From a virus (lineage: Duplodnaviria > Caudoviricetes): a DNA stretch of 59,295 nucleotides. The DNA lies in the IMG/VR virus record IMGVR_UViG_3300031963_000162, positions 1 through 59,295 of that record. One strand, given 5' to 3'. Below, piece after piece: positions 1-30,543 of the stretch. The position numbers were made by a program, and so were the translations under genes. The notes beneath the pieces are model-generated. The model was not told the DNA's origin and did not search any database. It saw nothing but the letters and a program-made list of their open reading frames with translations. The first letter of the stretch is position 1. Every line of letters starts with the position of its first letter.

Positions 1-2
1 GT

Positions 3-119
3 ACCGGAAAAGAGCTTTACCGAGAGGATGGGGAGTTTCTTGTTAGGCTCGCCAGAGAAGCAGACGAACTCCGTAGCGCCCTCAAACAGTGCTACCGCCA
101 ATACGAAGCAGTAAGGTGA
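3..119 (+). CDS. 3' end of Rz-like (i-spanin) lysis protein, partial
   Basis: Own translation of frame 3: TGKELYREDGEFLVRLAREADELRSALKQCYRQYEAVR-stop(117-119). Resembles the C-terminus of Rz/DUF2514-like spanins (EFL..A.EADE...L..C..Y). Truncated by window edge. Confidence 0.6.
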   Translation, partial: TGKELYREDGEFLVRLAREADELRSALKQCYRQYEAVR

Positions 120-122
120 GAG

Positions 123-1985
123 ATGGCTTATTTCAGATTAGCGTTAAAGCCGGGTATCGATAAACAGAATACCGAATACGGCGCAGAGGGCGGATGGATC
201 GATGGTGATTACATCCGCTTTCGTTATGGATTGCCGGAAAAGATCGGCGGCTGGACGCCGTTTGCCGAGAACAATGCTTACCTTGTTGGCATGTCTAGTG
301 ACATCCATACGTGGAATGACCTCTCTGGCGCACCTCACGTCTTGGTGGGCACTAACAAGAAGTTGTACGGTTTTTACGGTGGCACGTGGACGGATATCAC
401 GCCTTTACGTGCAACAACTGCACCGGGTGGCGTCACTTTTGCCGCAACATCGGGAAGCAACATCGTCACCGTCACTGATCCTGCGCACGGCGCGATTCGA
501 GGTGACTTTGTCACTTACAGCGGTGCGAGTGGCTTAGGTGGCGCGGTCACAGCGGCTTATCTGAACGCTGAATTTGAAATTCAAGAGATTCTTGGCGTAA
601 ACACGTACACCATTCGAGTAGGCGTTACAGCCACAGGCGCTGATTCTGGGAACGGTGGAGCGTCAGTAATAGGGGCCTATCAAATCAACACAGGCTCTGA
701 TATCAGCTACTTTGACTATGGTTGGGGCACGGGTACGTGGAGTTTGTCCACATGGGGTACGCCACGTCCAGCTTCTGCGGGCTTGTCGTTGAGCTCGCGT
801 GTCTGGCAGTTTGATAGCTATGGCGAAGATGTTGTTTGCCAGATTGCTGATGGCGGTATCTATCTATTCGATACCAGCGCGCCGAATGATCGGGTGCTTC
901 CTATTTCTGGCGCGCCAACCAAGAGCAAATACGCTTTGGTATCTACTCCAGATAGGCATTTAGTCTGCTTTGGCACGGAAAGCGTTATCGGTTCCTCGCC
1001 CACGCAGGACCCGATGTTTGTGCGATTCTCTAATCAAGAGGACATAAACACTTTTGCTGAGAGTGTCACAAATACCGCCGGGGGCCAACGACTAACGGAC
1101 GGTAGTGAGATCATCACCGCTGTTCGTTCACGTGGTCAGATTCTAATCTTCACAGACACTTCTTTACACGGCATGCAGTATGTTGGGCCTCCGTACACCT
1201 TTGGCTTTCAACAGCTAGGAGCCAACTGTGGATGCCTCGCGCCTCACGCAGCAGCGGATGTCAACGGCGTGGCGTTTTGGATGGGCACTGAGGCGTTTTA
1301 CGTGTTTGATGGTACGGTCAAAAAGATGCCTTGCACGGTGCAGGATTATGTCTTTAAAGACATTAATCTGACGCAAAAAGAGAAGTTTCACGTTGGCGTG
1401 AACTCGCAGTTCAACGAGGTTACGTGGTGGTATTGCTCTGCAAATTCGAACTATATCGACCGCTTCGTGACGTTCAACTATCTCGAAAGCGTGTGGTCAG
1501 TGGGCACCTTGTCACGAACTGCGTGGACGGACATCGGTACGTTTGTGCGTCCGCTTGCAACAAACTTCCTGCAAAACAGCAATGCGGCGACGATCTCAAC
1601 GATCTATGGTCTCACGGCAGGACGTGCGCGTGTGTACAACCAAGAAGACGGGGTCAATGCCGACGGCTCACCGATCATGTCGTTTATCAAGTCGGGCTAC
1701 TTTGACATCGGCGATGGCGACAACATGCTGTACATGCGTCGCTTCATCCCTGACTTTAAGAATCAAGTAGGTGATCTAACGGTGCGGTTGCTGCTTCGTC
1801 CTTACCCTCAGGCTCCGGCCAGCCCGAGTTCGCTTGACCCCTATGTCATTGCACCGGGCACAGAGAAGGTGGACACACGTGCGCGTGGGCGGCAGATTAG
1901 TTTGCAGATCGAGAGCGACGAAGTAGACAATAACTGGCGGTTTGGTACGTTGCGTGTTGATGTGCAGCCGGACGGCTTGAGATGA
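123..1985 (+). CDS. Tail nozzle / head-stabilisation protein (P22 gp10 / T7 gp12-like)
   Basis: 620 aa, beta-propeller-like W/G/D-rich repeats (VRFSNQED, QYVGPPYTFGFQQLG, FWMG, EVTWWY), C-terminal RARGRQ..WRFG..R.D; lies just before ejection-type genes. Confidence 0.7.
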   Translation: MAYFRLALKPGIDKQNTEYGAEGGWIDGDYIRFRYGLPEKIGGWTPFAENNAYLVGMSSDIHTWNDLSGAPHVLVGTNKKLYGFYGGTWTDITPLRATTAPGGVTFAATSGSNIVTVTDPAHGAIRGDFVTYSGASGLGGAVTAAYLNAEFEIQEILGVNTYTIRVGVTATGADSGNGGASVIGAYQINTGSDISYFDYGWGTGTWSLSTWGTPRPASAGLSLSSRVWQFDSYGEDVVCQIADGGIYLFDTSAPNDRVLPISGAPTKSKYALVSTPDRHLVCFGTESVIGSSPTQDPMFVRFSNQEDINTFAESVTNTAGGQRLTDGSEIITAVRSRGQILIFTDTSLHGMQYVGPPYTFGFQQLGANCGCLAPHAAADVNGVAFWMGTEAFYVFDGTVKKMPCTVQDYVFKDINLTQKEKFHVGVNSQFNEVTWWYCSANSNYIDRFVTFNYLESVWSVGTLSRTAWTDIGTFVRPLATNFLQNSNAATISTIYGLTAGRARVYNQEDGVNADGSPIMSFIKSGYFDIGDGDNMLYMRRFIPDFKNQVGDLTVRLLLRPYPQAPASPSSLDPYVIAPGTEKVDTRARGRQISLQIESDEVDNNWRFGTLRVDVQPDGLR

Positions 1986-3394
1986 GTAAGATCACCAACG
2001 TCCGTCTGCCTAACGCGGCGACGCAGCAGTACAGTCCAGAGCAGTTTAACCAGCTGGTTCGTTCACTAGAACAGGTCATTCTGCAGTTAAATAACACGTA
2101 CTCGCCTATCGTCACGGAGGACAAAGATGCTGCCCTTACATGGTATGAATCTGGCGGCGGACTTATGGATGACACTGGTATGACTATTCCTGTATCGATT
2201 GGTGGCACGAATACCGACGCTTTTGGGCGACTGCGAGTAAGTGAACCCTACACGTTGTTTGACAGTCAGAATCGCTACGCTGCTGACAATCAATTCGACA
2301 CGAGCCTAAGTGGCACAGGATCAAGTACCTATAACGCTAATCAAGCCAGTATGAGTCTGGCGGTGACAGGCGGCGGCGTTGGTTCTGTAGTACGTCAAAC
2401 ATATCGTGTTTTCCCCTACCAGCCCGGTAAAGGGTTGTTGGTGTTAGCTACGTTTGTCATGGACAACGGAACATCTGCCAACCTTAATCAAAGTGTTGGG
2501 TATTTTAATACTCAAAACGGAGTGTTCTTTCGTCGAACGGGTGGTGTGAATGCATTTGTAATGCGCTCCAATACTTCTGGAACACCCAGCGATGCGCGGT
2601 TTGCCAATCAAGCGGATTGGAACGGTGACAAACTGGATGGTACGGGCGCGTCTGGGTATACGCTAGACCTTGAACACCCACAGATTTTGTGGATGGACTT
2701 TGAGTGGCTTGGTGTTGGCTCAGTTCGATGTGGCTTTATTATTGATGGGCAGTATGTTGTTTGCCATACGTTTGATACTGCTAACGTGTATGGCACTACG
2801 GTTTATATGACCACGGCTATCTTGCCTGTGCGCTATGAAATTACTACAACAACGGCTGCGGTAGCTGCAACCCTCACACAAATCTGCTGCTCGGTGGTGT
2901 CAGAAGGCGGCTTTGAGCAAACGTCGATTGACCATGTGGCGCGACGCACCACGATTTTAAATACGATAGGAACAACCTTTTTGCCTTTGGTTTCCATTCG
3001 TTTGGCTCCGGGCCGAACCGGTGCGGTGGTGTTGCCAAACCGAATTCAAGCTCTTCCGACAACCAGCCAAAACTACGAAGTGGTTTTGGTTAAAAACCCT
3101 ACGCTAACTGGAGCGACATGGGCCTCTACAGTGCCTTCGGACTCCAACGTGGAATTTGATGTAGCGGCAACGGCTATGACAGGCGGCACGATTGTGCAGT
3201 CAAATTATCTTGCGTCTAACACTGCCGGGGGTACGGGGGGTACTAGTTTTGATAACGCCTACAACTTTGATTTGCAGTTAGGCGCGACTATTGCCGGGGT
3301 GAGCGACGTTTACACGGTGGGCATTCGAACGGTCTCAGGAGCCACAACCGGTGATGCCTTGGGCTCGTTATCCTTTTATGATTTGACTCAATAA
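1982..3394 (+). CDS. Virion structural protein; short helical N-terminal domain fused to a DAFGRLRVS-type beta domain
   Basis: 470 aa, ATGA overlap with upstream gene; N-terminal RLPNA..Y..EQFNQLVRSLEQ helix, then DAFGRLRVSEP..LFDS, YQPGKG, DFEWLGVG.VR.G motifs seen in aquatic phage structural proteins. Confidence 0.55.
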   Translation: MSKITNVRLPNAATQQYSPEQFNQLVRSLEQVILQLNNTYSPIVTEDKDAALTWYESGGGLMDDTGMTIPVSIGGTNTDAFGRLRVSEPYTLFDSQNRYAADNQFDTSLSGTGSSTYNANQASMSLAVTGGGVGSVVRQTYRVFPYQPGKGLLVLATFVMDNGTSANLNQSVGYFNTQNGVFFRRTGGVNAFVMRSNTSGTPSDARFANQADWNGDKLDGTGASGYTLDLEHPQILWMDFEWLGVGSVRCGFIIDGQYVVCHTFDTANVYGTTVYMTTAILPVRYEITTTTAAVAATLTQICCSVVSEGGFEQTSIDHVARRTTILNTIGTTFLPLVSIRLAPGRTGAVVLPNRIQALPTTSQNYEVVLVKNPTLTGATWASTVPSDSNVEFDVAATAMTGGTIVQSNYLASNTAGGTGGTSFDNAYNFDLQLGATIAGVSDVYTVGIRTVSGATTGDALGSLSFYDLTQ

Positions 3395-3720
3395 TGGCTA
3401 ATAAGTACTTACGCAAATACCTGATCCCGGCTGCTGCCACGGAGACAACGATCTACACCGTGCCGGACGCGAACACGGGGATCATGCGTTCGTTGCGAGT
3501 GACTAATGCAGGTGCGTCGAGCGCGCTAATCACAGTGACGCAGTATGTATCGGGTACTCCGCACTTTTTGCAAAAGGTGAGGGCACTACCGGTCAACGAC
3601 ACCTTTGATGTCTTCAACGGGATTCCTTGCATTATGGAAGCCGGGGACATTCTCAAAGTGACATCGTCTATTGCGACTGTGCACTTCTATTTAAGTTATC
3701 TTGAAGTGGACAGAAACTGA
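3394..3720 (+). CDS. Small virion structural protein
   Basis: 108 aa beta-rich (TIYTVP..., EAGDILKV), TAATG overlap, tail gene cluster. Confidence 0.55.
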   Translation: MANKYLRKYLIPAAATETTIYTVPDANTGIMRSLRVTNAGASSALITVTQYVSGTPHFLQKVRALPVNDTFDVFNGIPCIMEAGDILKVTSSIATVHFYLSYLEVDRN

Positions 3721-3736
3721 TGAATTACCACATAAT
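3707..3736 (+). promoter_or_regulatory. Putative sigma70 promoter for ejection-protein operon
   Basis: TGGACA (3707-3712), 18 bp spacer, CATAAT (3731-3736), just upstream of the structured leader. Confidence 0.4.
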
Positions 3737-3740
3737 TACC

Positions 3741-3804
3741 GGCAATTCCGCGTCCTTTCCCGGCGCGCGACCCCGCACGAGGGTCTATTGCCACTTTGGA
3801 AAGG
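3741..3804 (+). ncRNA. Putative cis-regulatory structured 5' leader (three-way junction + pseudoknot onto SD)
   Basis: P1 GGCAAT 3741-46/ATTGCC 3787-92; P2 CGCGTC 3749-54/GGCGCG 3762-67; P3 GACCC 3769-73/GGGTC 3781-85; CCTTTCC 3754-60 is the exact complement of GGAAAGG 3798-3804 (SD of the gene at 3811). Confidence 0.5.
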
Positions 3805-3810
3805 ATTATC

Positions 3811-6060
3811 ATGGCTGAAGCGATGCAGGGCGTCATGTCTCTAGCCCCCGAAATGGGTGGTATGGGCGGCGCTCCCAAGAGTTATTTGACCCCTGAAGAC
3901 GAAGCGACGTTAACGCAGCTTCAAAACTCAGTCTCTCCTCAAGATTTCAACAAAGAGATGTTCAACGCTGCGGAGCAAGCTGACCCGCAAGCGGTGGCAC
4001 AGTTGCGTTCTATGCTGCAAGGCTTACGCTTGCCGCAGGAACTCATCGATTTGATGAAGGAGATGGTGGATGCGCTTCTGCAGGAACCTGCCAAGTACGC
4101 AGAAAACCGTGCGGAATTAGTTAAAGAAGGAGTGCCAGAGGACCTCTTGCCGCCAGAGTTTGATCCAACCTATTTGATGGCTTTGGACATGGCCTTGGAT
4201 CAGGTCTCACAACCTGTGGTTCAAGGCTTTGCCGCTGGTGGATTGGTCAGAAATCCGATTTCTGCAGGTATCGCCAGCCTTGGCCGTGGCGGCGACAGAA
4301 TATTGGCGCACATCACCCCGCGTGAGGCACGTATGCTCATGCGCGCGGGCGGCGCAGGAACGATTAACCCTATCACGGGTCTGCCTGAGTTCTTTCTCAA
4401 GAAGTTAGCAAAGGCCGTGGGCGGGGTCTTTGTAGGCGCAGGCAAAGCTATTAAAGGGGCCTTCCGAGGCATTGGTAAGGCTATTAAAAAGTTTGCCAGT
4501 AGTACGATAGGACGCATTGTCACGTCAGTGGCGCTGGGCTTCCTCTTAGGCCCAGCGGCGGCAAGTCTGTTAGGGGTGACATCAAGCGTGGGCGTAGCAG
4601 CCATTGGCGGCTTTATCGGTTCTGCTGGGTCAACCTTGTTGGCAGGCGGCAGCGTCGGTGACGCACTGAAGGCCGGTGCCATGGGTGGTATTACCGCAGG
4701 CGCATTCTCTGGCGTAACCGGTGGCATGGGGGCCTTTAAAGCAGGTTCTTACGCAGGTCCTACGACGGTGTCGGGTTCGTGGCAGCAGTTTACTGAGAGC
4801 CTTGGTGGTAAATCTGCAGTAGATGCAACTAAAGGTATTGGTGCGGTGGACGACGCCGCTGCCGCAGGTAAAGCGGCGGGTGTTGTGGATGAAGCAGCGG
4901 CGGCAAGTAAGGCAGCGGGTGCTGTAGATGAAGCAGCGGCTGCAGGTAAGGCCGCGACTGCGGATGAAATAGCTACTTCGTCAAGTTATACAGGACCTGC
5001 GAGAAGCCCCTCAACCATTCCTTCTGGACAGGGCACTAACCCCTACGATCTTTACGATTACGATCCAATAGCTACTGAAATACAAAAAGGTTATCTAGCG
5101 GGTGGTAAACCTGTAGGCACTGTTCCAAGCGTTGCCTCGCCTGTGACAAACCTCTCAAGCTACACAGGTCCCACAACACCGCAGCCTGCTCAACTCTTAG
5201 GCACAGGGCCCGCAGTTCCTGCGCCTACCGTTGCGCCTACTGGGGGTCCCAACTACCTGACAGATTCCTTGGATAATTTCGCAGGTGGAACAAATGCTCC
5301 TATCCCTGCTCCTCCGAAAAACTACTTACTAGAGTCCCCTTCGACGATGGGTGGTCCCAACATGACCCCTGTCGCTGCACCTGCTGGCGGTGCGGCCCCT
5401 TCACAAGGGGTCATGGATTTAGTCAAGGAAGGTAAATTCATAGAGGCAGGCAAGACGGCTGGATCAAAGGTTGGTGACCTGTATGACGAATACCTCTCGC
5501 CAAGCGGAATACAACAACGCGGCTCAGCCGAAGCTTTAAATAAAACAAAAGAAGCTTTTCCCGGCTTGTCTACAGAACAGATCATCAATGCCCCAGCAGG
5601 TTCGGTTATTGCCAAGACTTACGAAGCAAATTTACCGGGCATGCTGGCAACTTACGGCCCACTCGTCGGAACAATTGGCGGCGCGGCCTATCTGGGCGGC
5701 GCATTTGACGTAGAAGAGCCACCAAAACCAGACATCCCTGTCTCCGGGGCAGAGCTCTATCGTCGAGACCCTTACCTCATTACGCCGGATGTCCGCACCG
5801 TATCGGCCTCTACTGGCACCCCTTATCGTTATGCAACGGGCGGTGTCGCTAGTCTGGCGCGGGGAACTTCGAGTTACCCACGCAAGACAGGTCCGATTAA
5901 CGGCCCCGGCACAGGTACTTCGGATTCGATTCCTGCAATGCTCTCAGACGGCGAATTTGTGTTCACCGCAGCAGCAGTTCGTGCCATGGGCGGTGGCTCA
6001 CGGCGCAAGGGCGCAAAGCGTATGTACGCCTTAATGAAGGCCTTGGAGAAGAGGGCATAA
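3811..6060 (+). CDS. Internal virion / DNA ejection protein
   Basis: Start moved to ATG 3811 (SD AAGGA). G/A-rich hydrophobic segments, D.ILAHITP.EA..L...GG.GTINP.TGLPEF and GPGTGTSDSIPAMLSDGEFV motifs; first of several large genes after the nozzle gene. Confidence 0.6.
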   Translation: MAEAMQGVMSLAPEMGGMGGAPKSYLTPEDEATLTQLQNSVSPQDFNKEMFNAAEQADPQAVAQLRSMLQGLRLPQELIDLMKEMVDALLQEPAKYAENRAELVKEGVPEDLLPPEFDPTYLMALDMALDQVSQPVVQGFAAGGLVRNPISAGIASLGRGGDRILAHITPREARMLMRAGGAGTINPITGLPEFFLKKLAKAVGGVFVGAGKAIKGAFRGIGKAIKKFASSTIGRIVTSVALGFLLGPAAASLLGVTSSVGVAAIGGFIGSAGSTLLAGGSVGDALKAGAMGGITAGAFSGVTGGMGAFKAGSYAGPTTVSGSWQQFTESLGGKSAVDATKGIGAVDDAAAAGKAAGVVDEAAAASKAAGAVDEAAAAGKAATADEIATSSSYTGPARSPSTIPSGQGTNPYDLYDYDPIATEIQKGYLAGGKPVGTVPSVASPVTNLSSYTGPTTPQPAQLLGTGPAVPAPTVAPTGGPNYLTDSLDNFAGGTNAPIPAPPKNYLLESPSTMGGPNMTPVAAPAGGAAPSQGVMDLVKEGKFIEAGKTAGSKVGDLYDEYLSPSGIQQRGSAEALNKTKEAFPGLSTEQIINAPAGSVIAKTYEANLPGMLATYGPLVGTIGGAAYLGGAFDVEEPPKPDIPVSGAELYRRDPYLITPDVRTVSASTGTPYRYATGGVASLARGTSSYPRKTGPINGPGTGTSDSIPAMLSDGEFVFTAAAVRAMGGGSRRKGAKRMYALMKALEKRA
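4840..4956 (+). repeat. Three 39-bp in-frame tandem repeats (G[AV]VD[DE]AAAA[GS]KAA)
   Basis: Copies at 4840, 4879 and 4918 within the ejection-protein gene. Confidence 0.8.
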
Positions 6061-6063
6061 GCC

Positions 6064-7299
6064 ATGGCAACTGAATATCAAGTACAAACCATTCAGGAAG
6101 CGCCTGAGATTGAGAAGGCGCGACTTGCCCTACTTAAGACAGCAGAGCGAGAAGTATCTAAACCACTCGCCCTCCCCGGCTATGAGATTGCGGGGCTTGG
6201 CGAAGGACAACTTCAAGCTAAATCGCTGGCTCAACAAGGCGTGGGGTCCTATCAGCCTTTCTTAACAGAAGCCGAAAAGGGCATGGCTGCAGGACAGCAG
6301 CTGACACAACAAGCAGCGCAGGGCATCGCAGGATTGAATGTTTCACAGCCTCTGCAGGCAGCATACGGCGCACTTCAAGCAGGCGCAGGTGCAGCAGGTA
6401 ACTTGGGGACATTAGCGGCTACAGCAGGGCAAGGTCTGCCTACGGCAGCGTATGGGGCATCTATGCTGCCCGGTGCGGCAAGTGGCTACGATCCTTCGCA
6501 AGCTGCTGCGTACATGAACCCTTACCAACAGCAAGTCACTGCCAACGCGCTGCAAGAGATGCAGCGTCAGGCCGACATTGCAAGACAGGGACAGGCGGCG
6601 CAAGCGGTGCGCACTGGCGCGTTTGGTGGCACACGTGAAGGTGTGCAACGTGCAGAGACGGAACGTGGCTTGATGGATGTCATGGGCCAGCGTATCCTGC
6701 AGGATTACTCACAGAACTATCTCCAAGCACAACAGGCCGCGCAACAGGGCTTTGAGTCGCAACAACAGCGCCAGCTGGCAGCAGGACAGGCATTAGGTCA
6801 AATGAGTCTTTTGCCTTCGCAGATTGCGGGTCAGCAGGCAAACATCTTGGGTAACCAAGCCAATATCTACGGCCAACTCGGTCAGGGCATCGGCAGTCTA
6901 GGTCTGCAACAGGGTCAGTTTGGCCTGCAACAGGGCAGCACACTGGGTGGTTTGGGTGCACAACTTGCTACGCAGGCGGGTCAGCGCGCCAACTTGGGCG
7001 CGATGCAGCAGCAGTTGGGTCAGGCAGACGTTGCAATGATGGGTCAGATTGGCGCACAAGAACAAGCACTGCAACAGGCTCGCTTGGATGCAATGCGCGC
7101 AACGCAGATGCAGCAGACCTTCATGCCGTTCCAGCTGCTCTCCTTCCAGTCGGACATCTTGTCGAAGACACCGGGTAGCCAGACAGCCATTACTTCAACT
7201 ACTGCACCATCGCCTAGTCCTTTGACGCAGGCAGTTTCTACGGGTATTGCCGGACTGAGCACCTATGCAGGCGGCAAGGCAGCAGGCTTGTTTAAGTAG
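6064..7299 (+). CDS. Gln/Ala-rich DNA ejection (pilot) protein
   Basis: 411 aa; YMNPYQQQV and GAFGGTR motifs, long Q/A/G helical region and C-terminal hydrophobic glycine zipper typical of podovirus ejection proteins. Confidence 0.6.
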   Translation: MATEYQVQTIQEAPEIEKARLALLKTAEREVSKPLALPGYEIAGLGEGQLQAKSLAQQGVGSYQPFLTEAEKGMAAGQQLTQQAAQGIAGLNVSQPLQAAYGALQAGAGAAGNLGTLAATAGQGLPTAAYGASMLPGAASGYDPSQAAAYMNPYQQQVTANALQEMQRQADIARQGQAAQAVRTGAFGGTREGVQRAETERGLMDVMGQRILQDYSQNYLQAQQAAQQGFESQQQRQLAAGQALGQMSLLPSQIAGQQANILGNQANIYGQLGQGIGSLGLQQGQFGLQQGSTLGGLGAQLATQAGQRANLGAMQQQLGQADVAMMGQIGAQEQALQQARLDAMRATQMQQTFMPFQLLSFQSDILSKTPGSQTAITSTTAPSPSPLTQAVSTGIAGLSTYAGGKAAGLFK

Positions 7300-7311
7300 A
7301 TTTTAGGAGAA

Positions 7312-9351
7312 ATGATGAAATCGAAAGTAATTGACAGGCCTATGTTCAAGAAGAAAGGGCCTCCCGTTCCGCCTGAGGACGTGAACAACGTCGGCATCAT
7401 GCAAGGCTTCATGGACCAAGTGTCCATGATGGACGAGATGGAAGGCGAGGAAGAAGACGACGATGAGATGGAGATGGGCAAGATGATGGACCGTCGTCCA
7501 GATTCGCCTGAAATCCTCATGAATAATCTTCGCGGCGACATGCGCTCGGTGGATGCGCGTGTGGAAGAACTCGCAGACTTGGTCGGCTATCGTGCAGCAG
7601 CGGAAACGCCCACAGAAGTCTTGGCACTCTTGCAGCCAGTCTTGGCTCAGCAGGGCGCGATGATGCAACCTCCGCCACAAATGGCAGGTCCTACACCACC
7701 CGGCCCGATGGGAGCATCGGCTGGCGCGGCTGCTGACTTAGCGGCCATGGCTCAAGGCCCACAGACCATGCCTCCTCCCGCTCCGGCACCTGAGATGCCT
7801 GCAGGCGGTATTGCATCGTTGCCTGCGGCTGCTGAACAACAAGCCCCGATTGCCATGAAGAACGGGGGGATTGTGCAGCGTTTTCAAGCGGGGTCCGATG
7901 AAGGCGGCGTGACCCCTGTGGAAGATCAGCCTTCATACGTCAATTACCCTAAATCCATGATTGATCAGGCACGTCAGTACCTGATGAACACAAAAATTGG
8001 AGAAACACTGCCTGTTCGTTCACTGGGCGAAGAAGCTGCCGCACGTGCAAAGGAATATCAAGCGCTATTAGGCGGAGAAGACGCTCGTCAGATGACAAAA
8101 GCGCAGATGTTATTTGACATTGCCCAAGGCGCATTAAACGTGGCTTCAGGCGTGGATGCCGAAGGTAAGCCCATTCGCGGTCGCATTTCACCCGTAGGTC
8201 GTTTTGCTGCAGGGATGCGTAACGTGCCTGCCCTAATTGGCGCGCGCGCGGGCGAATTACAAAAGCAAGACCGTGCTGTTAAGTTGGCTGCAATTGACTC
8301 CGCTGAAAAGCGCATTGCTAGTGTTCTTGATTACAACGCGAAGGTTATCGAAAGTAACCGTAAGCGCTTTGAAGGTGTGTTAAAGAACTCTGGGATGAGT
8401 TCCTTGTTTGGTAAAGGCGATTGGGAGTGGCGCATCATTAACACCCCTAACCTGCTTTCAGACTGGGCTGCGGGTAAAACAGACCCTGAACAAAGTCAGC
8501 TGGTTGAATCTGCTATAACCAAAATAAAGCAGCCAAAAATCGAAACTAGGGTAGACCCTGTTAGTAAGCAGCCTTATACAGTCAATGTTCCTCCTGTAAT
8601 TCCTAAGTTTGTGCAGCAGGCAATTGATGCCTATGGCAAATTTTCTAAGGACAGGGCAGGCGTTACTACAACGCCGGTTGTAACAGGTGAGAGAGGCACG
8701 AGAACGCCAAGCGCTGTTGAAACGGGGGAAGCACCTTCTTCACAGCAGGGTGCAGGCGCTGCTTATGAAGGCGCTACTTTTTTTGCAAAGCAAGGGAAGA
8801 AAAAGGTCCCGTATTTCTATCGAACACCAACGCCGGGAGACCCCACTTACTACAATCTGGCTGGTAAAGGAACCGGAGTCGTCAATGTCGCGAGTGCGTT
8901 TGTCAAAAAAATCCCCGGCATTGGAGACGTGTTTGACTTCGATGAAGAGCTGTATGCAACAGACTTTATAACCAAGACATCGAACAGGATTGTAAACAGC
9001 CTTCAGTCGAACAAAAACTTTGCAGAAGGGGAAGCCCAGCGCATTGCAGCAGATTTAGATATTAAGCCAAACATTATCGACAACGAAGGGGCGTTTAAGA
9101 TTAGATTACGTGCGCTTGATGATACGCTGCTTAACTACGCTACTAAAGCGTATGAACTTGGATACACCAAGCCTAACCTAGACCCTGATGAAATTGGCAA
9201 AAACCGAGCAAAATTCATAGAACTTCAAAACATTAGAAAAGTTTTGGGTGTACCTCCTCGAGAGGCAAAGGTCTTGCAAAGTAAGGATCAGTGGGATAAG
9301 TCACCAAAAGGTTCTGTTTGGATTGTTGAAGGCGAACTACTAGTTAAGTAG
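7312..9351 (+). CDS. Internal virion / ejection protein
   Basis: 679 aa; SD TAGGAG; acidic/Pro-rich N-terminus (ELA.LVG..AA.ETP.EVL.LLQP) then helical domain; position in ejection cluster. Confidence 0.5.
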   Translation: MMKSKVIDRPMFKKKGPPVPPEDVNNVGIMQGFMDQVSMMDEMEGEEEDDDEMEMGKMMDRRPDSPEILMNNLRGDMRSVDARVEELADLVGYRAAAETPTEVLALLQPVLAQQGAMMQPPPQMAGPTPPGPMGASAGAAADLAAMAQGPQTMPPPAPAPEMPAGGIASLPAAAEQQAPIAMKNGGIVQRFQAGSDEGGVTPVEDQPSYVNYPKSMIDQARQYLMNTKIGETLPVRSLGEEAAARAKEYQALLGGEDARQMTKAQMLFDIAQGALNVASGVDAEGKPIRGRISPVGRFAAGMRNVPALIGARAGELQKQDRAVKLAAIDSAEKRIASVLDYNAKVIESNRKRFEGVLKNSGMSSLFGKGDWEWRIINTPNLLSDWAAGKTDPEQSQLVESAITKIKQPKIETRVDPVSKQPYTVNVPPVIPKFVQQAIDAYGKFSKDRAGVTTTPVVTGERGTRTPSAVETGEAPSSQQGAGAAYEGATFFAKQGKKKVPYFYRTPTPGDPTYYNLAGKGTGVVNVASAFVKKIPGIGDVFDFDEELYATDFITKTSNRIVNSLQSNKNFAEGEAQRIAADLDIKPNIIDNEGAFKIRLRALDDTLLNYATKAYELGYTKPNLDPDEIGKNRAKFIELQNIRKVLGVPPREAKVLQSKDQWDKSPKGSVWIVEGELLVK

Positions 9352-9361
9352 AGGAATAACG

Positions 9362-12300
9362 ATGGCCCTTAGTGCGCAAGATATTGCAGCAATCAAACAA
9401 GAGGCGCGTCCTGCTAGTTCAACAGTAGATACGCGTCCTGCTAGTCCAGCGGCAGATACGCGTAAAGCCGCGCCTGCGAAACCGGCAGAATCTGCGGAGC
9501 CTGTGGCACCTTCTGCTCCTTCTGGATTAACAACAGAAGAGCTCACCGATATCCGATTAAATGCTTCTTCTCGGTCTGGCGCTCCGGCCTCAACGGCTAG
9601 TGTTACTGAAACCGGCGCAGGCCCTACGCCTGCGGATATACAACGTGAGCTTAAAACTGGGTTTGTTCAGGGGTTGACGCGTGGCTCAATCCAATCAGCA
9701 AGCGCTTTTACTGGCCTTCGTGCAGGCGCAATGGGAGCACCTTTTGCCGGTCCTGTAGGCCCTTACCTGCCCGGAATCGGTTTCGTCGGGGGCTTAACCC
9801 TAGGCAACATGCTGGCGGACGATGTAGACAAAAAGTTCCCCGGCGTTCCCATGCAATCCCTAATCCCTTACCGCGAGGGTGCAAAGATAGCGGGGGAATC
9901 GATCATGTATGCCCCCGGTATTTTTATGCTGCCTCAGTTGCAGGGAGGACGCGTAGCTCAATTTGTGACTGATCTAGGCACTTCCGCCAGAAAAAACCCG
10001 GCTACCTTTTTGTTAGGAGAAGGTATTTCCGCTGTTGGGGCAGGCACTGGCGGGGGTTTGGCAGAGCAGTTCTTTCCGGGAAACAGTTTCGCTCGACTCA
10101 CGGGTGAGGTAGGCGGCAGTGTGTTCATGCCCGGAAAATTTTTCGTCACGGCTTTAAATGTGGCTGGTGACCTTGCCGTTAGGATGAAAAATGCAGTTCT
10201 GCCCGGTAAAGGAAAAGAAGCTGCCATTTTAAATGCTAGGGAACTAGAGGCGGCAAACAAACTACGCGAAATACTTGAAACGAACAAAGAGGACGTAGGA
10301 CAACTTATCAAGGCTCTCGAAGCACAGTTGCCCGGCGGGGTTTCACCAACTGCCGCTCAGAAGACAGGTTCAGCATCCTTGATGATGTTTGAGAACACCA
10401 TGGCGCGGGGTAATCCGGTTCTTGCGGCAACGGTCAAGGCTAAAGGAACAGACACGCTAAAAGCTTATGCACTTTTAGTTGAAAACCTACGTCAGATAGG
10501 TTCACGTGATGCCTTGAAAAAGGCTGCAGAAATAGAATCGAGCGTATTCACCGATATGTTGAACGAGCGCATCATGGCGGCGGAACTTGTCGCAGCAGAT
10601 CGTATCAACAAGATTAAGGTGGATCGCCCGGAAACTCGCAAGATGGTGGGCAGTATTGTCAAAGAAAGTGTTGTAAAAGCTTTAGACGATTCGCGGAATT
10701 ATGAGCAGTTGTTATGGAATGAGGCAATAAAGGATTCTGTAAAGATTCGTAAAGTTAAGGGGGAGACTATTGTTACTCCACGCGCCGCACCCGTAACGAA
10801 TCTAGGTGAGTCCTTTTTGGAAGTTGCCACTTCTATGACGCCAGAGCGTTTTAATGCAAAGGTGCCTGCGGAGATACGTGCAATCATGTCCCGACTGGGC
10901 ATCGATTCGGATGCCATAGCGAACTACGCCAAAGGAAAAAACACACCAGAGTATTTGAACACGGGGCGCGTACCTTCTGAGTATCTGACTAAACCCGCAG
11001 GCCCACGAACGGATCGTCGAGTATCCATCTTTGAGGGTACAACCGTGCAAGACCTCATAAACATTCGTGGGGACTTACTATCTTATGCACGGGACAGTGC
11101 TGTTTCAAACCCGTCCTTCGCTAACTTTTACGGGCGCTTGTCTGAGGCCGCACTAAGAGACTTAGACGCACTTCCGGGAACAGCGTACGACAGGGCACGT
11201 TCTTTCTCTCGTGCTTTGAATGACGTGTTTAGCCGTACGTTGGCATCGGATGTAACACAGGGGACAGCGATTGTCGGTGGCAAGGTTGTTCCGACTACGG
11301 TAGGGGAAAAACTTCCTGCTGAAATACTTGTTCAAAGAGCTTATGGAAGTGCTAATGACCTCACTTCGCTCCGCATGGACCAGATTGAGAATGCGGTAGG
11401 CTTCTTAAAAAAACAGTATGACGACGCTGTCAGGGACTTCGGTCCGAAAAGTTCACAAGCACGGGCCTTACAAACATATGCGGATGTTTCTGAAAAAGCT
11501 GCCGTATCGGTGAGGGATGCTCACGGTAAAGTTCTTCTTGCTGCAGCCAATAAGACTATCAAGCCTGTCCTTGACCCTTCCACTGGTATTACGCGGGATA
11601 GGGTAGACCCCCGCGCATTACAGCAGTTTGTTGCGGAAAATAAACCCATGCTGGACCGTATGGGGCTGACAAAAGATTTGTCTAGTGCTGTAACTGCAGA
11701 AAACGCGTTCCGTCTAGTTTTGGATAAGAACAGCGCGTTTAACAAGTCGATTCAGTCACAGAAGGCTTTCGCGGATGCGGTTGCAACAGGTGTTGAAAGC
11801 CCTACACGTTTGATAACTCAGGTTTTGAACGGTGATAAACCCATAGAAGGCTTTTCAAAGCTCGTTAATATCGCTGCCAAGAGCAAAAGCTTAGATGCCA
11901 TGGCAGGCTTAAAAGCGAGCGTGATGGATTATGCCTTCACTAAAGCTGGGGGAGTAGACGGCTTTAGTCCTCAGGCTTTTCAAAGTGCGCTTTTTGAACC
12001 TCTTGGGGGAATCAAAGGCCAACCTTCGCTGTACGGCCTGATGCGCAACAAAAACATCATTACCTTAAACGAAGGCAAGCAGCTAAAGCAGGTGCTTAAT
12101 CGCATGTCTTCGGTTGAAGAAGCAATCGGAAACGGAAGACTGCTTGAAGAACTCGTAGCGGCTGGAGGCCCGATTGAAGAGCTGGCGTTAAGGATCATGG
12201 GTTCTAAATTAGGGCAAGCCTTTGACAAGGGCTCCTTGATTGCGGCTTCTGCGGGTTCAAAATACTTGCGCGATATGTTTGACAAGACGCCCATGATGGC

Positions 12301-12718
12301 CGTCAAAAACATGCTGGAACGTGCTGTTGTCGATCCCCAGTTTGCAGCAGAACTTCTAAAGAAGACCGGTACTCTGCCACGGGAGAAGATGTATCTTGCC
12401 GCACGTATGTTTAACTCCTCATTGGTTAATGCAGGGGTGAACTACGCAACGTCGGATGAGAGGCCAACTATCGATCCCACTTTACCGCCGTATGCAGCGC
12501 CTTTACCCCCGTTGCGTCAACGACGATTACAACCTCAAACGGCTCCGACAAGAGGCGTACCGGGTTTAAGCGCGCCTGCGATGCCTAGCAACGTGCCTGC
12601 GATGCCTGATATCACATCCTCCCCTTTGCCTGCTCCAGCGAAAGCCCCGTCACAGGGTCAAGGCACTGGTCGAGAGATGTTGCGTCGTTTGTTCCCGTTT
12701 GATACCACCCTTCAGTAG
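9362..12718 (+). CDS. Large internal virion / ejection protein
   Basis: 1118 aa, mostly helical with glycine-zipper segments near N-terminus; last large gene of the cluster; SD GAGG. Confidence 0.5.
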   Translation: MALSAQDIAAIKQEARPASSTVDTRPASPAADTRKAAPAKPAESAEPVAPSAPSGLTTEELTDIRLNASSRSGAPASTASVTETGAGPTPADIQRELKTGFVQGLTRGSIQSASAFTGLRAGAMGAPFAGPVGPYLPGIGFVGGLTLGNMLADDVDKKFPGVPMQSLIPYREGAKIAGESIMYAPGIFMLPQLQGGRVAQFVTDLGTSARKNPATFLLGEGISAVGAGTGGGLAEQFFPGNSFARLTGEVGGSVFMPGKFFVTALNVAGDLAVRMKNAVLPGKGKEAAILNARELEAANKLREILETNKEDVGQLIKALEAQLPGGVSPTAAQKTGSASLMMFENTMARGNPVLAATVKAKGTDTLKAYALLVENLRQIGSRDALKKAAEIESSVFTDMLNERIMAAELVAADRINKIKVDRPETRKMVGSIVKESVVKALDDSRNYEQLLWNEAIKDSVKIRKVKGETIVTPRAAPVTNLGESFLEVATSMTPERFNAKVPAEIRAIMSRLGIDSDAIANYAKGKNTPEYLNTGRVPSEYLTKPAGPRTDRRVSIFEGTTVQDLINIRGDLLSYARDSAVSNPSFANFYGRLSEAALRDLDALPGTAYDRARSFSRALNDVFSRTLASDVTQGTAIVGGKVVPTTVGEKLPAEILVQRAYGSANDLTSLRMDQIENAVGFLKKQYDDAVRDFGPKSSQARALQTYADVSEKAAVSVRDAHGKVLLAAANKTIKPVLDPSTGITRDRVDPRALQQFVAENKPMLDRMGLTKDLSSAVTAENAFRLVLDKNSAFNKSIQSQKAFADAVATGVESPTRLITQVLNGDKPIEGFSKLVNIAAKSKSLDAMAGLKASVMDYAFTKAGGVDGFSPQAFQSALFEPLGGIKGQPSLYGLMRNKNIITLNEGKQLKQVLNRMSSVEEAIGNGRLLEELVAAGGPIEELALRIMGSKLGQAFDKGSLIAASAGSKYLRDMFDKTPMMAVKNMLERAVVDPQFAAELLKKTGTLPREKMYLAARMFNSSLVNAGVNYATSDERPTIDPTLPPYAAPLPPLRQRRLQPQTAPTRGVPGLSAPAMPSNVPAMPDITSSPLPAPAKAPSQGQGTGREMLRRLFPFDTTLQ

Positions 12719-12726
12719 GAGGCGGC

Positions 12727-13530
12727 ATGGCAACCAAACCAGTAAAAGCAAAGGCCAAGGTGTCAGTTAAAGCCCCTGCTAGAAAAATTCGCAAATTTAG
12801 AGAAGGTGGGTCTGTAATGGATTCCCCTTCTTACGATATGCGCGATCCTGCCTATCGAAAGCAACTAGAAAAGAAACAAGCCTTAGAAACATCAACTGAG
12901 GACCTTGAGCTTCTATTAGGGGTGGGAGCGGCAAAAAAGGGTGCGGGACTTTTACTTAAAGACCTCAAGAACTTTACACAACGAGCACCTAGTCGTTCTA
13001 TCACAAGGAACATAGAGATAGGCTCTAAAACACCTGAGGTTATATACAAAAGGGAATACGACAGACTGCGCCGAATGGCTGACGATGCCTTGGCACAGGG
13101 ACGTAAGGTGCCTGAAAAAGAACTCAAAGAGAAGGCAGAATATTGGACGCAGTATGAATTGAAAAAGATTAAAGACAATAAGCTGCCTTCAAGGAAAGAC
13201 TTAGTAAAACAAGAGGTAAAGGATAAAGCTTTAAAAACTGCGGAACGTGCGTTCTATGCTACTTCGTTGGAAACGGCTCCTAAAGCATTAAGATCGTTTC
13301 AAGATAAAGAAGAGAAGCCCGCTGGCATGAAAAAAGGAGGAGCGGTGAAAAAAACCACGAAGTCCAAGGTCAACCAGTCCGCCAACTACACGAAGCCGAC
13401 GATGCGCAAGCGCTTGTTTGAGCAGATCAAAGGCTCTGCCACGCAGGGGACCGCTGCAGGTCAATGGTCGGCCCGCAAGGCCCAGCTGCTGGCGAAGAAA
13501 TACAAAGCCAGCGGCGGGGGCTACAAGTGA
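12727..13530 (+). CDS. Lys-rich protein with C-terminal GQWSARKAQLL domain (DUF5872-like N-half)
   Basis: 267 aa; NYTKPTMRKRLFEQIK...GQWSARKAQLLAKKYK..GGGY; carries FREGGSV and MKKGGAV motifs. Confidence 0.55.
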   Translation: MATKPVKAKAKVSVKAPARKIRKFREGGSVMDSPSYDMRDPAYRKQLEKKQALETSTEDLELLLGVGAAKKGAGLLLKDLKNFTQRAPSRSITRNIEIGSKTPEVIYKREYDRLRRMADDALAQGRKVPEKELKEKAEYWTQYELKKIKDNKLPSRKDLVKQEVKDKALKTAERAFYATSLETAPKALRSFQDKEEKPAGMKKGGAVKKTTKSKVNQSANYTKPTMRKRLFEQIKGSATQGTAAGQWSARKAQLLAKKYKASGGGYK

Positions 13531-13766
13531 AGAAGCCACAGTTAAGCCTGAAAGCATGGGGCAAACAGAAATGGACCACGAAAAGTGGCAAGCCCTCGTC
13601 CGTCACCGGAGAGAGATACCTGCCCGAGAAGGCCATCAAGTCCCTGAGCCCGGAAGACTATCTCGCTACGACACGGGCAAAGCGGGCAGGGAAGAAAGCT
13701 GGCAAGCAGTTCGTCAAGCAGCCAAAACGCATTGCCGTGAAGACCGCTAGGTTTCGGAAGATTTAG
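13527..13766 (+). CDS. Small basic protein (DUF5872-like C-half)
   Basis: GTG start overlapping upstream TGA (GTGA); PQ.SLKAW.KQKW.TKSGKPS..TGERYLP..AI..LS...GKQFVKQP. Confidence 0.6.
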   Translation: MKKPQLSLKAWGKQKWTTKSGKPSSVTGERYLPEKAIKSLSPEDYLATTRAKRAGKKAGKQFVKQPKRIAVKTARFRKI

Positions 13767-14439
13767 CCAAGAACTTCTCCACCCGCTCCAGCCATTCCTT
13801 CTTCTGACGCTCGAAGTCCCGGCCCGTGGTCGTGAACTCTTGGGTCGTGCCGTCTTGTACAGCAATCAGTACAACACCGAAGTTGATCTCCGTGCCGTAG
13901 ACGATGTCGTGCGCCAAGGCGTAGGCCGAGAGCTGGTGGAAGTAGTCTGTGATCCATTCATAGCGCTTCGGCTTCAGGCTTTGTTTGAAGTCCACAATGG
14001 CCGGTCGCCCACGGAACACGCCTACCAAGTCAGTCGTCCCCGCGTACTTGCCGGGATAGTACAAAGGGACCTCTGAACCCCAGACTTCATCCAGCGAACT
14101 GAAGTGCTCGTTGATCAATCGGTGGCCCATTTCATAGCCCCGCATCTGCAGCCAATCCTCTGCTGGAGGTAATGCTGTTCCCTCCAAGAATCTTTCAATG
14201 ACGAAATGCATGGCCGTACCCACATGCGCGGCTTCGTTCTTAATTCTTTCTGCCTCAGCGGCACCAACCCGTGCAGCCCACGCTTCGAGCGAAGTTTTGT
14301 CTTTCGTCTTGTCAAGAATGTTGGTAACGCTGTAAACAGGCGTGTCGTCGCCCCGGCGGTAGGTGCGGCCCCTAGGCGTTTCAATGCGTTCCAGCCGTTC
14401 GTAGGTGTAGAGATTCTTGACGGGGATCAAATTAGCCAT
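13747..14439 (-). CDS. PD-(D/E)XK exonuclease (RecB/MGME1-like)
   Basis: YSVTNIL, GTAMH..IE, SEV.L...YAGTTDLV...IVDFK, YFHQLSAYA motifs. Confidence 0.8.
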   Translation of the reverse strand: MANLIPVKNLYTYERLERIETPRGRTYRRGDDTPVYSVTNILDKTKDKTSLEAWAARVGAAEAERIKNEAAHVGTAMHFVIERFLEGTALPPAEDWLQMRGYEMGHRLINEHFSSLDEVWGSEVPLYYPGKYAGTTDLVGVFRGRPAIVDFKQSLKPKRYEWITDYFHQLSAYALAHDIVYGTEINFGVVLIAVQDGTTQEFTTTGRDFERQKKEWLERVEKFLAKSSET

Positions 14440-30072: not shown

Positions 30073-30114
30073 TTTCCGGACGGGCACATGCTCGGATTAC
30101 ATACAGGGAGAAAA
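30046..30114 (+). promoter_or_regulatory. Early cassette leader 1 (promoter + hairpin + TACAGGGAGAAAA)
   Basis: TTGCAA 30046-51, 16 bp, CATAAT 30068-73, TTCCGGACGGGCA hairpin, TACAGGGAGAAAA 30102-14. Confidence 0.7.
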
Positions 30115-30116
30115 AC

Positions 30117-30541: not shown

Positions 30542-30543
30542 TT

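What the first reader, a model, noticed from the sequence alone, without database searches (positions are those of the whole stretch)
3741..3810. Riboswitch-like RNA leader: three-way junction whose loop pairs with the Shine-Dalgarno
Seen: nearly the whole gap between a -10 box (CATAAT 3731) and the ejection-operon start folds into P1 (GGCAAT/ATTGCC), P2 (CGCGTC/GGCGCG) and P3 (GACCC/GGGTC). CCTTTCC (3754-60, mostly the P2 loop) is perfectly complementary over 7 nt to GGAAAGG (3798-3804), which overlaps the SD. Established: pseudoknots that occlude the SD are how translational riboswitches such as preQ1 and SAM-II work. Inference: an unannotated ligand- or protein-controlled translational switch that limits low-copy, possibly membrane-active ejection proteins. 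I cannot assign it to a known Rfam family.
Basis: partly seen in the sequence, partly recalled or inferred. Interest (0 to 1): 0.8.

Follow-up and report, generated by a model that had tools for sequence, protein, structure and literature searches.

The report
Promoter-linked folded RNA leader in phage
The flagged stretch is a real, conserved, uncatalogued folded RNA that sits directly behind a conserved host-type promoter in front of a large virion-protein gene of an uncultured lake phage, and in this phage one of its loops can cover the ribosome landing site, probably to hold translation down.

Summary

The window's sequence alone is not significant: z = -1.7, and 11-12 of 200 shuffles fold as well. 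Comparison with relatives is decisive:
- A covariance model finds exactly one copy in the window and in each of 98 of 99 related phage contigs.
- Every copy inspected lies just upstream of the gene-4 homolog.
- P1, P2 and P3 show compensatory changes in 6/6, 4/6 and 5/5 pairs.
- G-U cells outnumber A-C cells 103 to 22, so this is + strand RNA.

New points:
- A sigma70-type promoter (-35 TGGACA, 17-18 nt spacer, -10 NATAAT) is kept in 95/95 distinct relatives.
- A conserved Y-A start step lies 5 nt before P2.
- Promoter-started RNA would therefore lack the P1 5' arm, so P1 can form only in read-through RNA.

The 8-bp loop-SD pairing is invariant in 33/56 distinct sequences. It is lost in the others and shows no covariation.

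There is no Rfam match. The sequence look-up of this scan's earlier notes found it on no other DNA.

Verdict: a new cis-regulatory leader family. Nothing points to a ligand.

The parts
3394..3720 (+). Gene 3 (108 aa, phrog_1276, function unknown). Its last codons (V-D-R) overlap the -35 hexamer.
   Evidence: In other clades the stop lies further upstream and a separate -35 follows it.
3707..3712 (+). -35 hexamer TGGACA (5 of 6 to TTGACA).
   Evidence: Best sigma70-like site in 1-14000, 10 of 12 matches. A hexamer matching TTGACA in 5 of 6 positions (TGGACA, TAGACA, ATGACA or TTGATA) lies 18 nt (76) or 17 nt (19) before the -10 in 95 of 95 distinct relatives.
3731..3736 (+). -10 hexamer CATAAT.
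   Evidence: Among 95 distinct relatives: CATAAT 46, GATAAT 46, CATTAT 2, TATAAT 1.
3744..3744 (+). Inferred transcription start (A, preceded by C). It lies 8 nt after the -10 and 5 nt before P2. Not mapped experimentally.
   Evidence: A at 5 nt before P2 in 84 of 94; a pyrimidine before it in 84 of 94; a Y-R step with R at offset 7 or 8 in 86 of 94.
3741..3746 (+). P1 5' arm GGCAAT. It overlaps the promoter's discriminator and start region, so only RNA read through from gene 3 contains it whole.
   Evidence: 6 of 6 P1 pairs have changes on both sides. Cognate flanks pair better than permuted ones, -5.8 against -3.3 kcal/mol, 0 of 5000 permutations.
3749..3767 (+). P2 hairpin: CGCGUC (3749-3754), loop CUUUCCC (3755-3761), GGCGCG (3762-3767). 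The lower stem CGCG/CGCG is nearly invariant.
   Evidence: 99.3% of cells paired; GC to CG and U-G/U-A/C-G exchanges. Recovered by RNAalifold.
3753..3760 (+). Anti-SD UCCUUUCC: the last 2 nt of the P2 5' arm plus the loop.
   Evidence: 8-bp duplex with 3798-3805 at -12.1 kcal/mol, invariant in 33 of 56 distinct sequences. No covariation.
3768..3768 (+). Single unpaired C between P2 and P3.
   Evidence: Alignment A4, column 40.
3769..3785 (+). P3 hairpin: GACCC, loop CGCACGA, GGGUC.
   Evidence: 5 of 5 pairs have changes on both sides, e.g. G-C 61 against A-U 31 at one pair.
3787..3792 (+). P1 3' arm AUUGCC.
3798..3805 (+). Shine-Dalgarno region GGAAAGGA.
   Evidence: It lies 5 nt before the ATG.
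3811..6060 (+). Gene 4 (749 aa), a virus-only protein of unknown family. Its C-terminal ~40 aa resemble tape-measure proteins. It is the first of five co-oriented large genes that run to 13530.
   Evidence: The homolog in DSL-LC04 is named 'tail tape measure protein' by its depositors.

Best explanation
The spacer holds two linked elements that serve gene 4.

1. An internal host-type (sigma70) promoter: -35 TGGACA 3707-3712, 18-nt spacer, -10 CATAAT 3731-3736. The likely start is A3744.

2. A compact structured leader RNA on the + strand. Its conserved core is two adjacent G+C-rich hairpins separated by one C (P2 and P3). A closing helix, P1, can form only in RNA read through from gene 3, because its 5' arm lies at or before the promoter's start site.

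Most likely mechanism (inferred): the leader sets how often ribosomes start on gene 4. In the window's clade the pyrimidine loop of P2 (UCCUUUCC) pairs with the SD (GGAAAGGA), either as a loop-SD pseudoknot or, at equilibrium, as a long-range helix that replaces P2. Translation of this virion protein would then be throttled constitutively, or until a conserved partner binds the invariant P2-C-P3 core. P1 would serve as an insulating clamp that keeps the core folded inside the long polycistronic RNA.

Shown here: the RNA fold, its strand, the promoter's conservation, and the fixed position before gene 4.

Inferred: the start site, the effect on translation, and any partner.
For: Family and position:
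- One copy per genome, always at the same place. Model R1 found 63 matches in 90 sources, and none in the 25 sources that lack the motif. Model R2 found 98 matches in 99 sources.
- A context-free pattern scan gave 79 new loci. Of these, 53 carry the element, and every distinct hit printed lies before a gene-4-like N-terminus.
- In L227 the genes upstream are replaced, but promoter, RNA and gene 4 are kept.

Structure:
- 91.6% of cells are paired, against 30-57% when partners are slid. 16 of 23 pairs have changes on both sides; 0 of 500 shuffles reach this.
- RNAalifold's own consensus is P1+P2+P3, with 12 of 14 pairs compensated.
- 12 of 18 diverse sequences fold to the junction on their own.

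Strand: G-U 103 cells against A-C 22 cells.

Promoter: 95 of 95 distinct relatives keep it, with different 5-of-6 variants of TTGACA. The Y-A start step is conserved. The same phage uses sigma70-like promoters followed by hairpins elsewhere.

Anti-SD:
- -12 kcal/mol in 33 of 56 distinct sequences, far better than shuffled loops or control coding windows.
- The predicted probability that the SD is unpaired is about 0-0.05 in most of these, against mostly 0.23-0.77 in the clades without the loop match.
- The consensus fold of the 54 CCUUUCC sequences is the anti-SD:SD helix.
Against: - The loop-SD pairing is lost in 23 of 56 distinct sequences, including L013/L027, close relatives of the window by their gene-3 protein. 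It has no compensatory change. Three sequences (L017, L011, L002) carry a U insertion in the loop with no change in the SD. SD masking therefore cannot be the family's common function.
- The near-invariant sequence of the P2 lower stem, the single C and the base of P3 is not explained by SD masking.
- Predicted SD accessibility does not differ between read-through and promoter-started isoforms: means 0.22, 0.20, 0.21, 0.22.
- Single-sequence folding energies are not significant (z from -0.15 to -2.5).
- The alignments used for pair counts were fitted to the model, which favours the structure. This is only partly offset.
- No transcript start, expression or binding data exist. The only RNA run holding the stretch gave one 171-nt contig inside gene 3.
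Confidence: 0.5

Rival explanations
1. mRNA stability or processing element. P2-P3, starting about 5 nt from the 5' end of the promoter-started RNA, would protect it from 5'-end-dependent decay, like the ompA-type 5' stabilisers (recalled). In the long RNA the closed junction would mark a nuclease processing site that uncouples gene 4 from upstream genes. The anti-SD match would be secondary.
For: - The distance from the conserved start A to P2 is fixed at 5 nt in 84 of 94.
- P2 and P3 are kept in all clades, including those without the anti-SD and with weak P1.
- The same phage places hairpins right at predicted transcript starts in four other cassettes.
- A conserved AUAAU lies single-stranded just 5' of P1 in the long RNA.
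Against: - A generic stabiliser needs no invariant stem sequence, yet C-G 94/94, G-C 88/94, C-G 93/94 and G-C 90/94 are kept in P2.
- P1 covaries although it cannot lie at a 5' end.
- No nuclease site can be tested here.
Confidence: 0.2
2. One reading: a ligand- or protein-triggered translational riboswitch, in which binding to the junction decides whether the loop masks the SD.
For: - Two mutually exclusive folds exist in the window's clade: the junction, and the anti-SD:SD helix.
- The invariant P2-C-P3 core suggests a specific partner.
- No known family matches, so a new class is not excluded.
Against: - The junction is tiny: J2/3 is one C and J3/1 is 0-2 nt. That leaves little room for a small-molecule pocket.
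- The gene downstream is a virion structural gene, not a metabolic or transport gene.
- The expression platform (loop-SD) is missing in 23 of 56 members while the putative aptamer is kept.
- The pseudoknot shows no covariation.
Confidence: 0.12
3. An RNA that acts on the transcribing polymerase (processive antitermination, as with HK022 put). Two adjacent stem-loops made just after a promoter would bind RNA polymerase and carry it through the last ~10 kb of the late operon.
For: - There are two stem-loops separated by one base, right behind a conserved host promoter. put RNAs are ~70 nt, have two stem-loops, and putL lies just downstream of PL (PMC9378689, passages read).
- The invariant stems fit a universal host partner, given relatives whose element G+C ranges from 0.42 to 0.61.
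- The closing helix P1 would let read-through polymerases fold the same element.
Against: - No convincing intrinsic terminator lies on the + strand between 3811 and 13530. There are only weak terminator-like hits, fewer than in shuffles.
- The element is shorter (about 37 nt for P2-P3) than put, and no sequence likeness to put was tested.
- It sits immediately before an SD, which suggests a translational role.
Confidence: 0.08
4. A DNA-level site: inverted repeats bound by a dimeric regulator next to the promoter, not an RNA.
For: P2 and P3 are inverted repeats directly downstream of a promoter, with conserved sequence.
Against: - G-U or U-G cells number 103 against 22 A-C or C-A cells. The fifth P2 pair is U-G in 60, U-A in 24 and C-G in 4 of 94. 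That is always a pair as + strand RNA, but an asymmetric half-site as DNA.
- P1 joins two arms about 40 nt apart.
Confidence: 0.03

Closest known systems
Inhibitory leader structures with an embedded late promoter in phage T4 (genes e, soc, 49, I-TevI). Source: review PMC3014915, passages read.
   Same: A promoter lies in the DNA that encodes the 5' strand of an RNA structure. Long read-through transcripts can therefore form a helix that promoter-started transcripts lack. The structure sits at a translation initiation region of a phage gene, and the SD can be masked.
   Different: - In T4 the 5' strand itself pairs with the SD or AUG. Here the strand lost (P1 5' arm) pairs 6-12 nt upstream of the SD, and the anti-SD lies downstream of the start, so both isoforms contain it.
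- Predicted SD access is the same in both isoforms.
- The promoter is of host sigma70 type, not a T4 late TATAAATA promoter.
- The fold is a three-way junction with an invariant two-hairpin core.
Their properties are recalled, not tested.
   Same: A pyrimidine-rich loop is complementary to the SD, with alternative folds.
   Different: No Rfam match. No ligand-related gene context. The pairing is not conserved across the family and does not covary.
HK022 put RNAs (PMC9378689, passages read).
   Same: A cis-acting phage RNA of two stem-loops made just downstream of a host-type promoter.
   Different: It is shorter and closed by a third helix. It lies directly before an SD inside a late structural operon. 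No downstream terminators are evident. No homology was tested.
Other uncatalogued three-way-junction leaders with an anti-ribosome-site loop noted by this scan in other phages (notes e1-5796639, e1-5704361, e1-5389126; unchecked AI notes).
   Same: Same design: a small three-armed leader, one loop complementary to the gene's own ribosome site, in uncultured phages, absent from Rfam.
   Different: Those sit before homing-endonuclease or accessory genes and often occur in several copies. This one is single-copy, tied to a virion gene and fused to a conserved promoter. The sequence look-up found no look-alike among earlier windows.

Membership tests
Any Rfam 15 family (including riboswitch classes) | Match to a curated covariance model | tested here: not met
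   Window 3500-4100 at E up to 10: two chance-level matches, neither at the element on the + strand. Eleven diverse relatives (58,421 bases) at E up to 1: three matches, none at the element.
SD-masking pseudoknot riboswitch (preQ1-II / SAM-II kind) | Loop-SD pairing conserved and maintained by compensation across members | tested here: not met
   Invariant in 33 of 56 distinct sequences and lost in 23 of 56. 1 of 6 pairs has a both-side change, in a single cell.
SD-masking pseudoknot riboswitch (preQ1-II / SAM-II kind) | Ligand binding that shifts the fold | not testable with these tools
   Needs in-line probing, SHAPE or ITC.
SD-masking pseudoknot riboswitch (preQ1-II / SAM-II kind) | Association with genes for making or transporting the ligand | tested here: not met
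   In every copy inspected it lies before the gene-4 homolog, a virus-only virion-type protein.
Sigma70-type promoter | -35 and -10 hexamers near consensus, 16-18 nt apart | tested here: met
   TGGACA-18-CATAAT, 10 of 12 matches, the best site in 1-14000.
Sigma70-type promoter | Conservation of both hexamers and their spacing in relatives, independent of coding | tested here: met
   95 of 95 distinct relatives keep it, including clades where the -35 is non-coding. The variants are TGGACA, TAGACA, ATGACA and TTGATA.
Sigma70-type promoter | Mapped transcription start | not testable with these tools
   Only assembled contigs of RNA runs were on hand, with one 171-nt contig in gene 3. The start at A3744 is inferred from the Y-A step.
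T4-type promoter-in-structure translational control | [quoted passage not shown] | tested here: met
   The P1 5' arm lies at offsets 1-10 after the -10. A start at offset 7 leaves 1.9 of 5.4 bp.
T4-type promoter-in-structure translational control | The strand missing from the short transcript is the one that masks the SD or AUG | tested here: not met
   The partner of the P1 5' arm is 3787-3792, upstream of the SD. The anti-SD 3753-3760 is present in both isoforms.
HK022 put-like antitermination RNA | Two stem-loops just downstream of a promoter | tested here: met
   P2 and P3, one base apart, start 5 nt after the inferred start.
HK022 put-like antitermination RNA | Terminators downstream that are read through; binding to RNA polymerase | tested here: inconclusive
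   The consensus scan shows no convincing + strand terminator in 3811-13530. Binding is not testable here.
5'-terminal mRNA stabiliser | Stable hairpin within a few nt of the 5' end | tested here: inconclusive
   The overhang is 5 nt if the start is A3744, but the start is not mapped.

The most novel reading that the evidence does not exclude
A promoter-embedded, two-isoform riboregulator. Long RNA read through from the tail genes closes P1 and folds the full junction. RNA started at the internal promoter begins 5 nt before P2 and cannot close P1. The invariant P2-C-P3 core would then be read by a conserved partner, either the transcribing polymerase as with put RNA or a phage or host protein. 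The two isoforms would differ in translation or elongation, giving timed and dosed synthesis of the genome-delivery proteins. This would be a T4 gene-e-like logic built on a new three-way-junction RNA that is widespread in uncultured lake and marine phages.
Probability: 0.2. Interest if true: 0.65.

Novelty: new member of a known kind. Interest (0 to 1): 0.5.

Why it matters
It adds a well-supported RNA family that is absent from Rfam. It has about 100 members in hand, one per genome, in an abundant and uncultured group of ~60 kb aquatic phages (the proposed 'Dishuiviridae' around DSL-LC04).

It shows that these phages drive part of their late structural module from a conserved host-type internal promoter. 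It also gives a clean natural example of a covarying RNA helix that overlaps a promoter's start site, which raises the question of isoform-specific folding outside T4.

In practice, the promoter and leader mark the start of the gene-4 operon for annotation. They also mark a recombination joint between variable tail genes and the conserved downstream block (L227).

The mechanism is open, so the value is that of a solid lead, not a solved system.

Tried and rejected
- RNA evidence for the start site. The run search gave 4 metatranscriptome runs, all kept as contigs. Laid on 3000-5000, they gave one 171-nt contig at 3429-3599 in one run and nothing in three. This says nothing about starts or expression.
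- Hammerhead idea. CUGAUGA at 3717-3723 plus GAAA looked like a hammerhead core, but the motif is not kept in relatives and Rfam shows nothing. Rejected.
- In-frame read-through of gene 3 into gene 4. The two share a frame in the window with a 90-nt gap, but the gaps in relatives are 77-90 nt and not multiples of three, and an in-frame stop precedes 3796. Rejected.
- ATAAT pairing with AUUAU near the start codon. Not kept in relatives. Rejected.
- Upstream hairpin CCUGUC/GACAGG around the -35. Absent in the window's clade. Rejected.
- P3 loop AUG/GUG as an upstream start. Not kept. Rejected.
- MAFFT plus RNAalifold on 39 raw spacers recovered only P2 and P3, because P1 was mis-registered. Solved with covariance models.
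- Isoform test. Predicted SD accessibility is the same for read-through and for starts at offsets 5, 7 and 9. This gives no support for a T4-like on/off switch, though pseudoknots are not modelled.
- Marine clades. The P2 loop matches codons 6-8 of gene 4 (CGGGA) at -6 to -9 kcal/mol, but this is no better than shuffled loops, with p = 0.19-0.40.
- Bacterial genomes. Of the 80 loci read, model R2 found one weak match (E = 0.031), which on inspection lacks the promoter and is judged chance. No host was learned.
- Protein function. Pfam finds nothing for genes 1-6 or for the 1118-aa, 267-aa and 1223-aa proteins. The atlas search for gp4 returned only unnamed viral clusters. gp3 compared with the 214-aa L227 protein gave E = 0.052, not related.
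- Literature. A search for 'DSL-LC04' found 1 paper. I read its passages, and they do not mention this RNA; its supplements were not seen. A search on phage / structured RNA / three-way junction / Shine-Dalgarno / virion / covariation found 1 unrelated paper. I found no description in print in these two searches.
- The review PMC4496710 held nothing on put structure.
- Earlier scan notes: no look-alike by sequence.

Full report
WHAT IS IN THE WINDOW

The 90-nt spacer 3721-3810 lies between gene 3 (3394-3720, 108 aa) and gene 4 (ATG 3811 to 6060, 749 aa).
- CATAAT 3731-3736.
- P1 3741-3746 with 3787-3792.
- P2 3749-3754 with 3762-3767 (one U-G pair).
- P3 3769-3773 with 3781-3785.
- CCTTTCC 3754-3760 complementary to GGAAAGG 3798-3804, extendable to 8 bp (3753-3760 with 3798-3805).

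The start codon is at 3811, not 3812.

IS THE WINDOW'S SEQUENCE ALONE MORE THAN CHANCE?

Only weakly.
- The 52-nt core folds into the junction at minimum free energy (-20.2 kcal/mol), but z = -1.66 and 11 of 200 shuffles fold as well.
- With the SD included, the minimum-energy fold is a long-range anti-SD:SD helix plus P3. It scores -29.3 kcal/mol, z = -1.69, with 12 of 200 shuffles as good.
- The loop-SD duplex (-12.1 kcal/mol) beats 99 of 100 shuffled loops.

THE PHAGE

The window is a ~59 kb phage genome with DNA polymerase, primase, helicases, large terminase, portal and major head protein.

The only named relative is the uncultured lake phage DSL-LC04 (OR003939; 64.8% identity over 40% of a 2-kb query). 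Its depositors call the gene-4 homolog 'tail tape measure protein' and a downstream 1068-aa protein 'DNA transfer protein'. Their paper places it in a proposed new family (PMC10611076, passages read).

PHROGs and Pfam give gene 4 only a ~40-aa tape-measure-like C-terminal match. An atlas search gives only unnamed viral clusters. 'Ejection operon' is therefore plausible but unproven.

RELATIVES

Two protein-guided scans of IMG/VR gave 160 loci. In the 72 loci that hold both gene-3 and gene-4 homologs, the spacer is mostly 77-90 nt, although the flanking proteins fall to 38-60% identity. There are 39 distinct spacers.

A model built from four close sequences (R1) was run over 90 sources. It found 63 matches, never more than one per source, including just one in the window. 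It found none in the 25 relatives that lack the motif.

A context-free DNA pattern scan gave 79 further loci. Of these, 53 carry the element. Every distinct hit printed lies before a gene-4-like N-terminus.

A second model (R2) found 98 matches in 99 sources, of which 94 are distinct.

Relatives without gene 3 (L114, L048) have no element. In L227, genes 2 and 3 are replaced by an unrelated 214-aa gene, while promoter, RNA and gene 4 remain. The element therefore belongs to gene 4.

THE FOLD IS REAL AND IS RNA

On alignment A4:
- 91.6% of cells form standard pairs, against 30-57% when partners are slid by 1-3 columns.
- 16 of 23 pairs have changes on both sides, against 9.3 in shuffles; 0 of 500 shuffles reach the observed value.
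- By helix: P1 6 of 6, P2 4 of 6, P3 5 of 5. The smaller set agrees.

These alignments were fitted to the model, which favours the structure. Two checks do not rely on that fit:
- The unaligned flanks of each sequence pair with each other better than with the flanks of other sequences: -5.8 against -3.3 kcal/mol, 0 of 5000 permutations, though relatedness inflates this.
- RNAalifold's own consensus on A4 is P1+P2+P3, with 12 of 14 pairs compensated.

Of 18 diverse members folded singly, 12 give the junction, 5 give P2+P3 only, and 1 gives another fold. Single z-scores are unimpressive, from -0.15 to -2.5.

G-U and U-G cells number 103 against 22 A-C and C-A cells. The fifth P2 pair is U-G in 60, U-A in 24 and C-G in 4 of 94. 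This fits + strand RNA and argues against a DNA palindrome or an antisense RNA.

Rfam 15 has no match in the window or in 11 diverse relatives.

THE PROMOTER

TGGACA (3707-3712), 18 nt, then CATAAT is the best sigma70-like site in 1-14000.

In 95 of 95 distinct relatives, a hexamer matching TTGACA in 5 of 6 positions lies 18 nt (76) or 17 nt (19) before NATAAT. The -10 variants are CATAAT 46, GATAAT 46, CATTAT 2 and TATAAT 1.

The -35 variants differ from the consensus at different positions (TGGACA, TAGACA, ATGACA, TTGATA). In several clades the -35 is non-coding, because the gene-3 stop lies further upstream. That is the signature of selection for a -35 element, not for a codon.

An A lies exactly 5 nt before P2 in 84 of 94, preceded by a pyrimidine in 84 of 94. 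A Y-R step with R at offset 7 or 8 after the -10 occurs in 86 of 94. This is the canonical start position, and I infer a start at A3744.

THE P1 PARADOX

The P1 5' arm occupies offsets 1-10 after the -10. A start at offset 7 leaves on average 1.9 of 5.4 bp. Yet P1 covaries.

The simplest reading has two parts:
- The functional core is P2-C-P3, kept in all clades with near-invariant stem sequence.
- P1 closes the fold only in long RNA read through from gene 3. No terminator lies between.

Promoter-started RNA would begin 5 nt before P2. This resembles the T4 arrangement, in which a promoter lies in the DNA for the 5' strand of a leader structure (PMC3014915). Here, however, the missing strand is not the one that masks the SD, and predicted SD access is the same for both isoforms.

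THE LOOP-SD PAIRING

- It is invariant in 33 of 56 distinct sequences (-8.7 to -12.7 kcal/mol). This is far better than control coding windows in all 33, and better than at least 89 of 100 shuffled loops in each.
- In most of those sequences the SD is predicted to be almost always paired.
- The consensus fold of the 54 CCUUUCC sequences, taken from the inferred start, is the anti-SD:SD helix.
- It is absent or insignificant in 23 of 56. These include L013/L027, whose gene-3 protein is 87-88% identical to the window's, and the marine clades.
- It has no compensatory change.
- A U insertion in the loop of three sequences is not matched in the SD.

SD masking is therefore a credible function in the window's clade. 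It is not the family's defining function.

MECHANISM

Best-supported reading (confidence 0.5): a promoter-linked cis-regulatory leader of gene 4 that sets translation initiation, through anti-SD masking in this clade. Its P2-C-P3 core has a partner that is still unknown.

Rivals:
- mRNA stabiliser or processing site (0.2).
- Ligand- or protein-triggered riboswitch (0.12).
- put-like action on the polymerase (0.08; PMC9378689).
- DNA operator (0.03).

Shown here: the fold, the strand, the conservation, the position and the promoter motif. Inferred: the start site, the effect on translation, and any partner.

NOVELTY

- No Rfam family matches.
- Two literature searches found no description. The supplements of the DSL-LC04 paper were not seen.
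- No look-alike exists in this scan's earlier windows by sequence.
- The design has been noted by the scan in other phage RNA families (unchecked notes).

It is a new member of a known kind: an SD-proximal structured leader.

Noticed in passing
window 30046-31900: Four sigma70-like promoters are each followed within 3-7 nt by a G+C hairpin and the same 13-letter ribosome-site word. In the fourth (about 31812-31870) the hairpin plus T-run looks like an intrinsic terminator that begins 4 nt after the -10. This would be a terminator for upstream RNA overlapping a promoter.
   Followed up: partly
window 45440-46141 and 57833-58486: Two GIY-YIG homing-endonuclease-like ORFs (phrog_7168 / phrog_314) lie inside the structural gene module.
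   Followed up: no
L227 2800-3546 (minus strand): Genes 2 and 3 are replaced by one unrelated 214-aa ORF, whose stop codon lies inside the -35 hexamer (ATGACA). Promoter, RNA and gene 4 are kept. This is a mosaic joint exactly at the promoter.
   Followed up: partly
window 3706-3713; L003 5742-5780: In the window's clade the -35 region GTGGACAG also encodes V-D-R at the end of gp3. In other clades the same C-terminal residues are encoded upstream and a separate non-coding -35 follows the stop. The sequence is under dual constraint.
   Followed up: partly
L114 2940-3010; L048 5350-5420: Relatives without gene 3 join gene 2 to a longer gene 4 (1114 aa), or to a different gene, with a 31-57 nt gap and no promoter or RNA element.
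   Followed up: partly
L097, L102, L111 and similar marine loci, first 25 nt of gene 4: The short P2 loops (UUCCCG-type) are complementary to codons 6-8 of gene 4 (CGGGA) instead of the SD. The pairing is no better than with shuffled loops.
   Followed up: partly
window 3681-3718 minus strand: Rfam TMV_UPD-PK3 matched at E = 0.048 and 18.4 bits, below the gathering score of 34, inside the end of gene 3 on the opposite strand. Judged chance.
   Followed up: no
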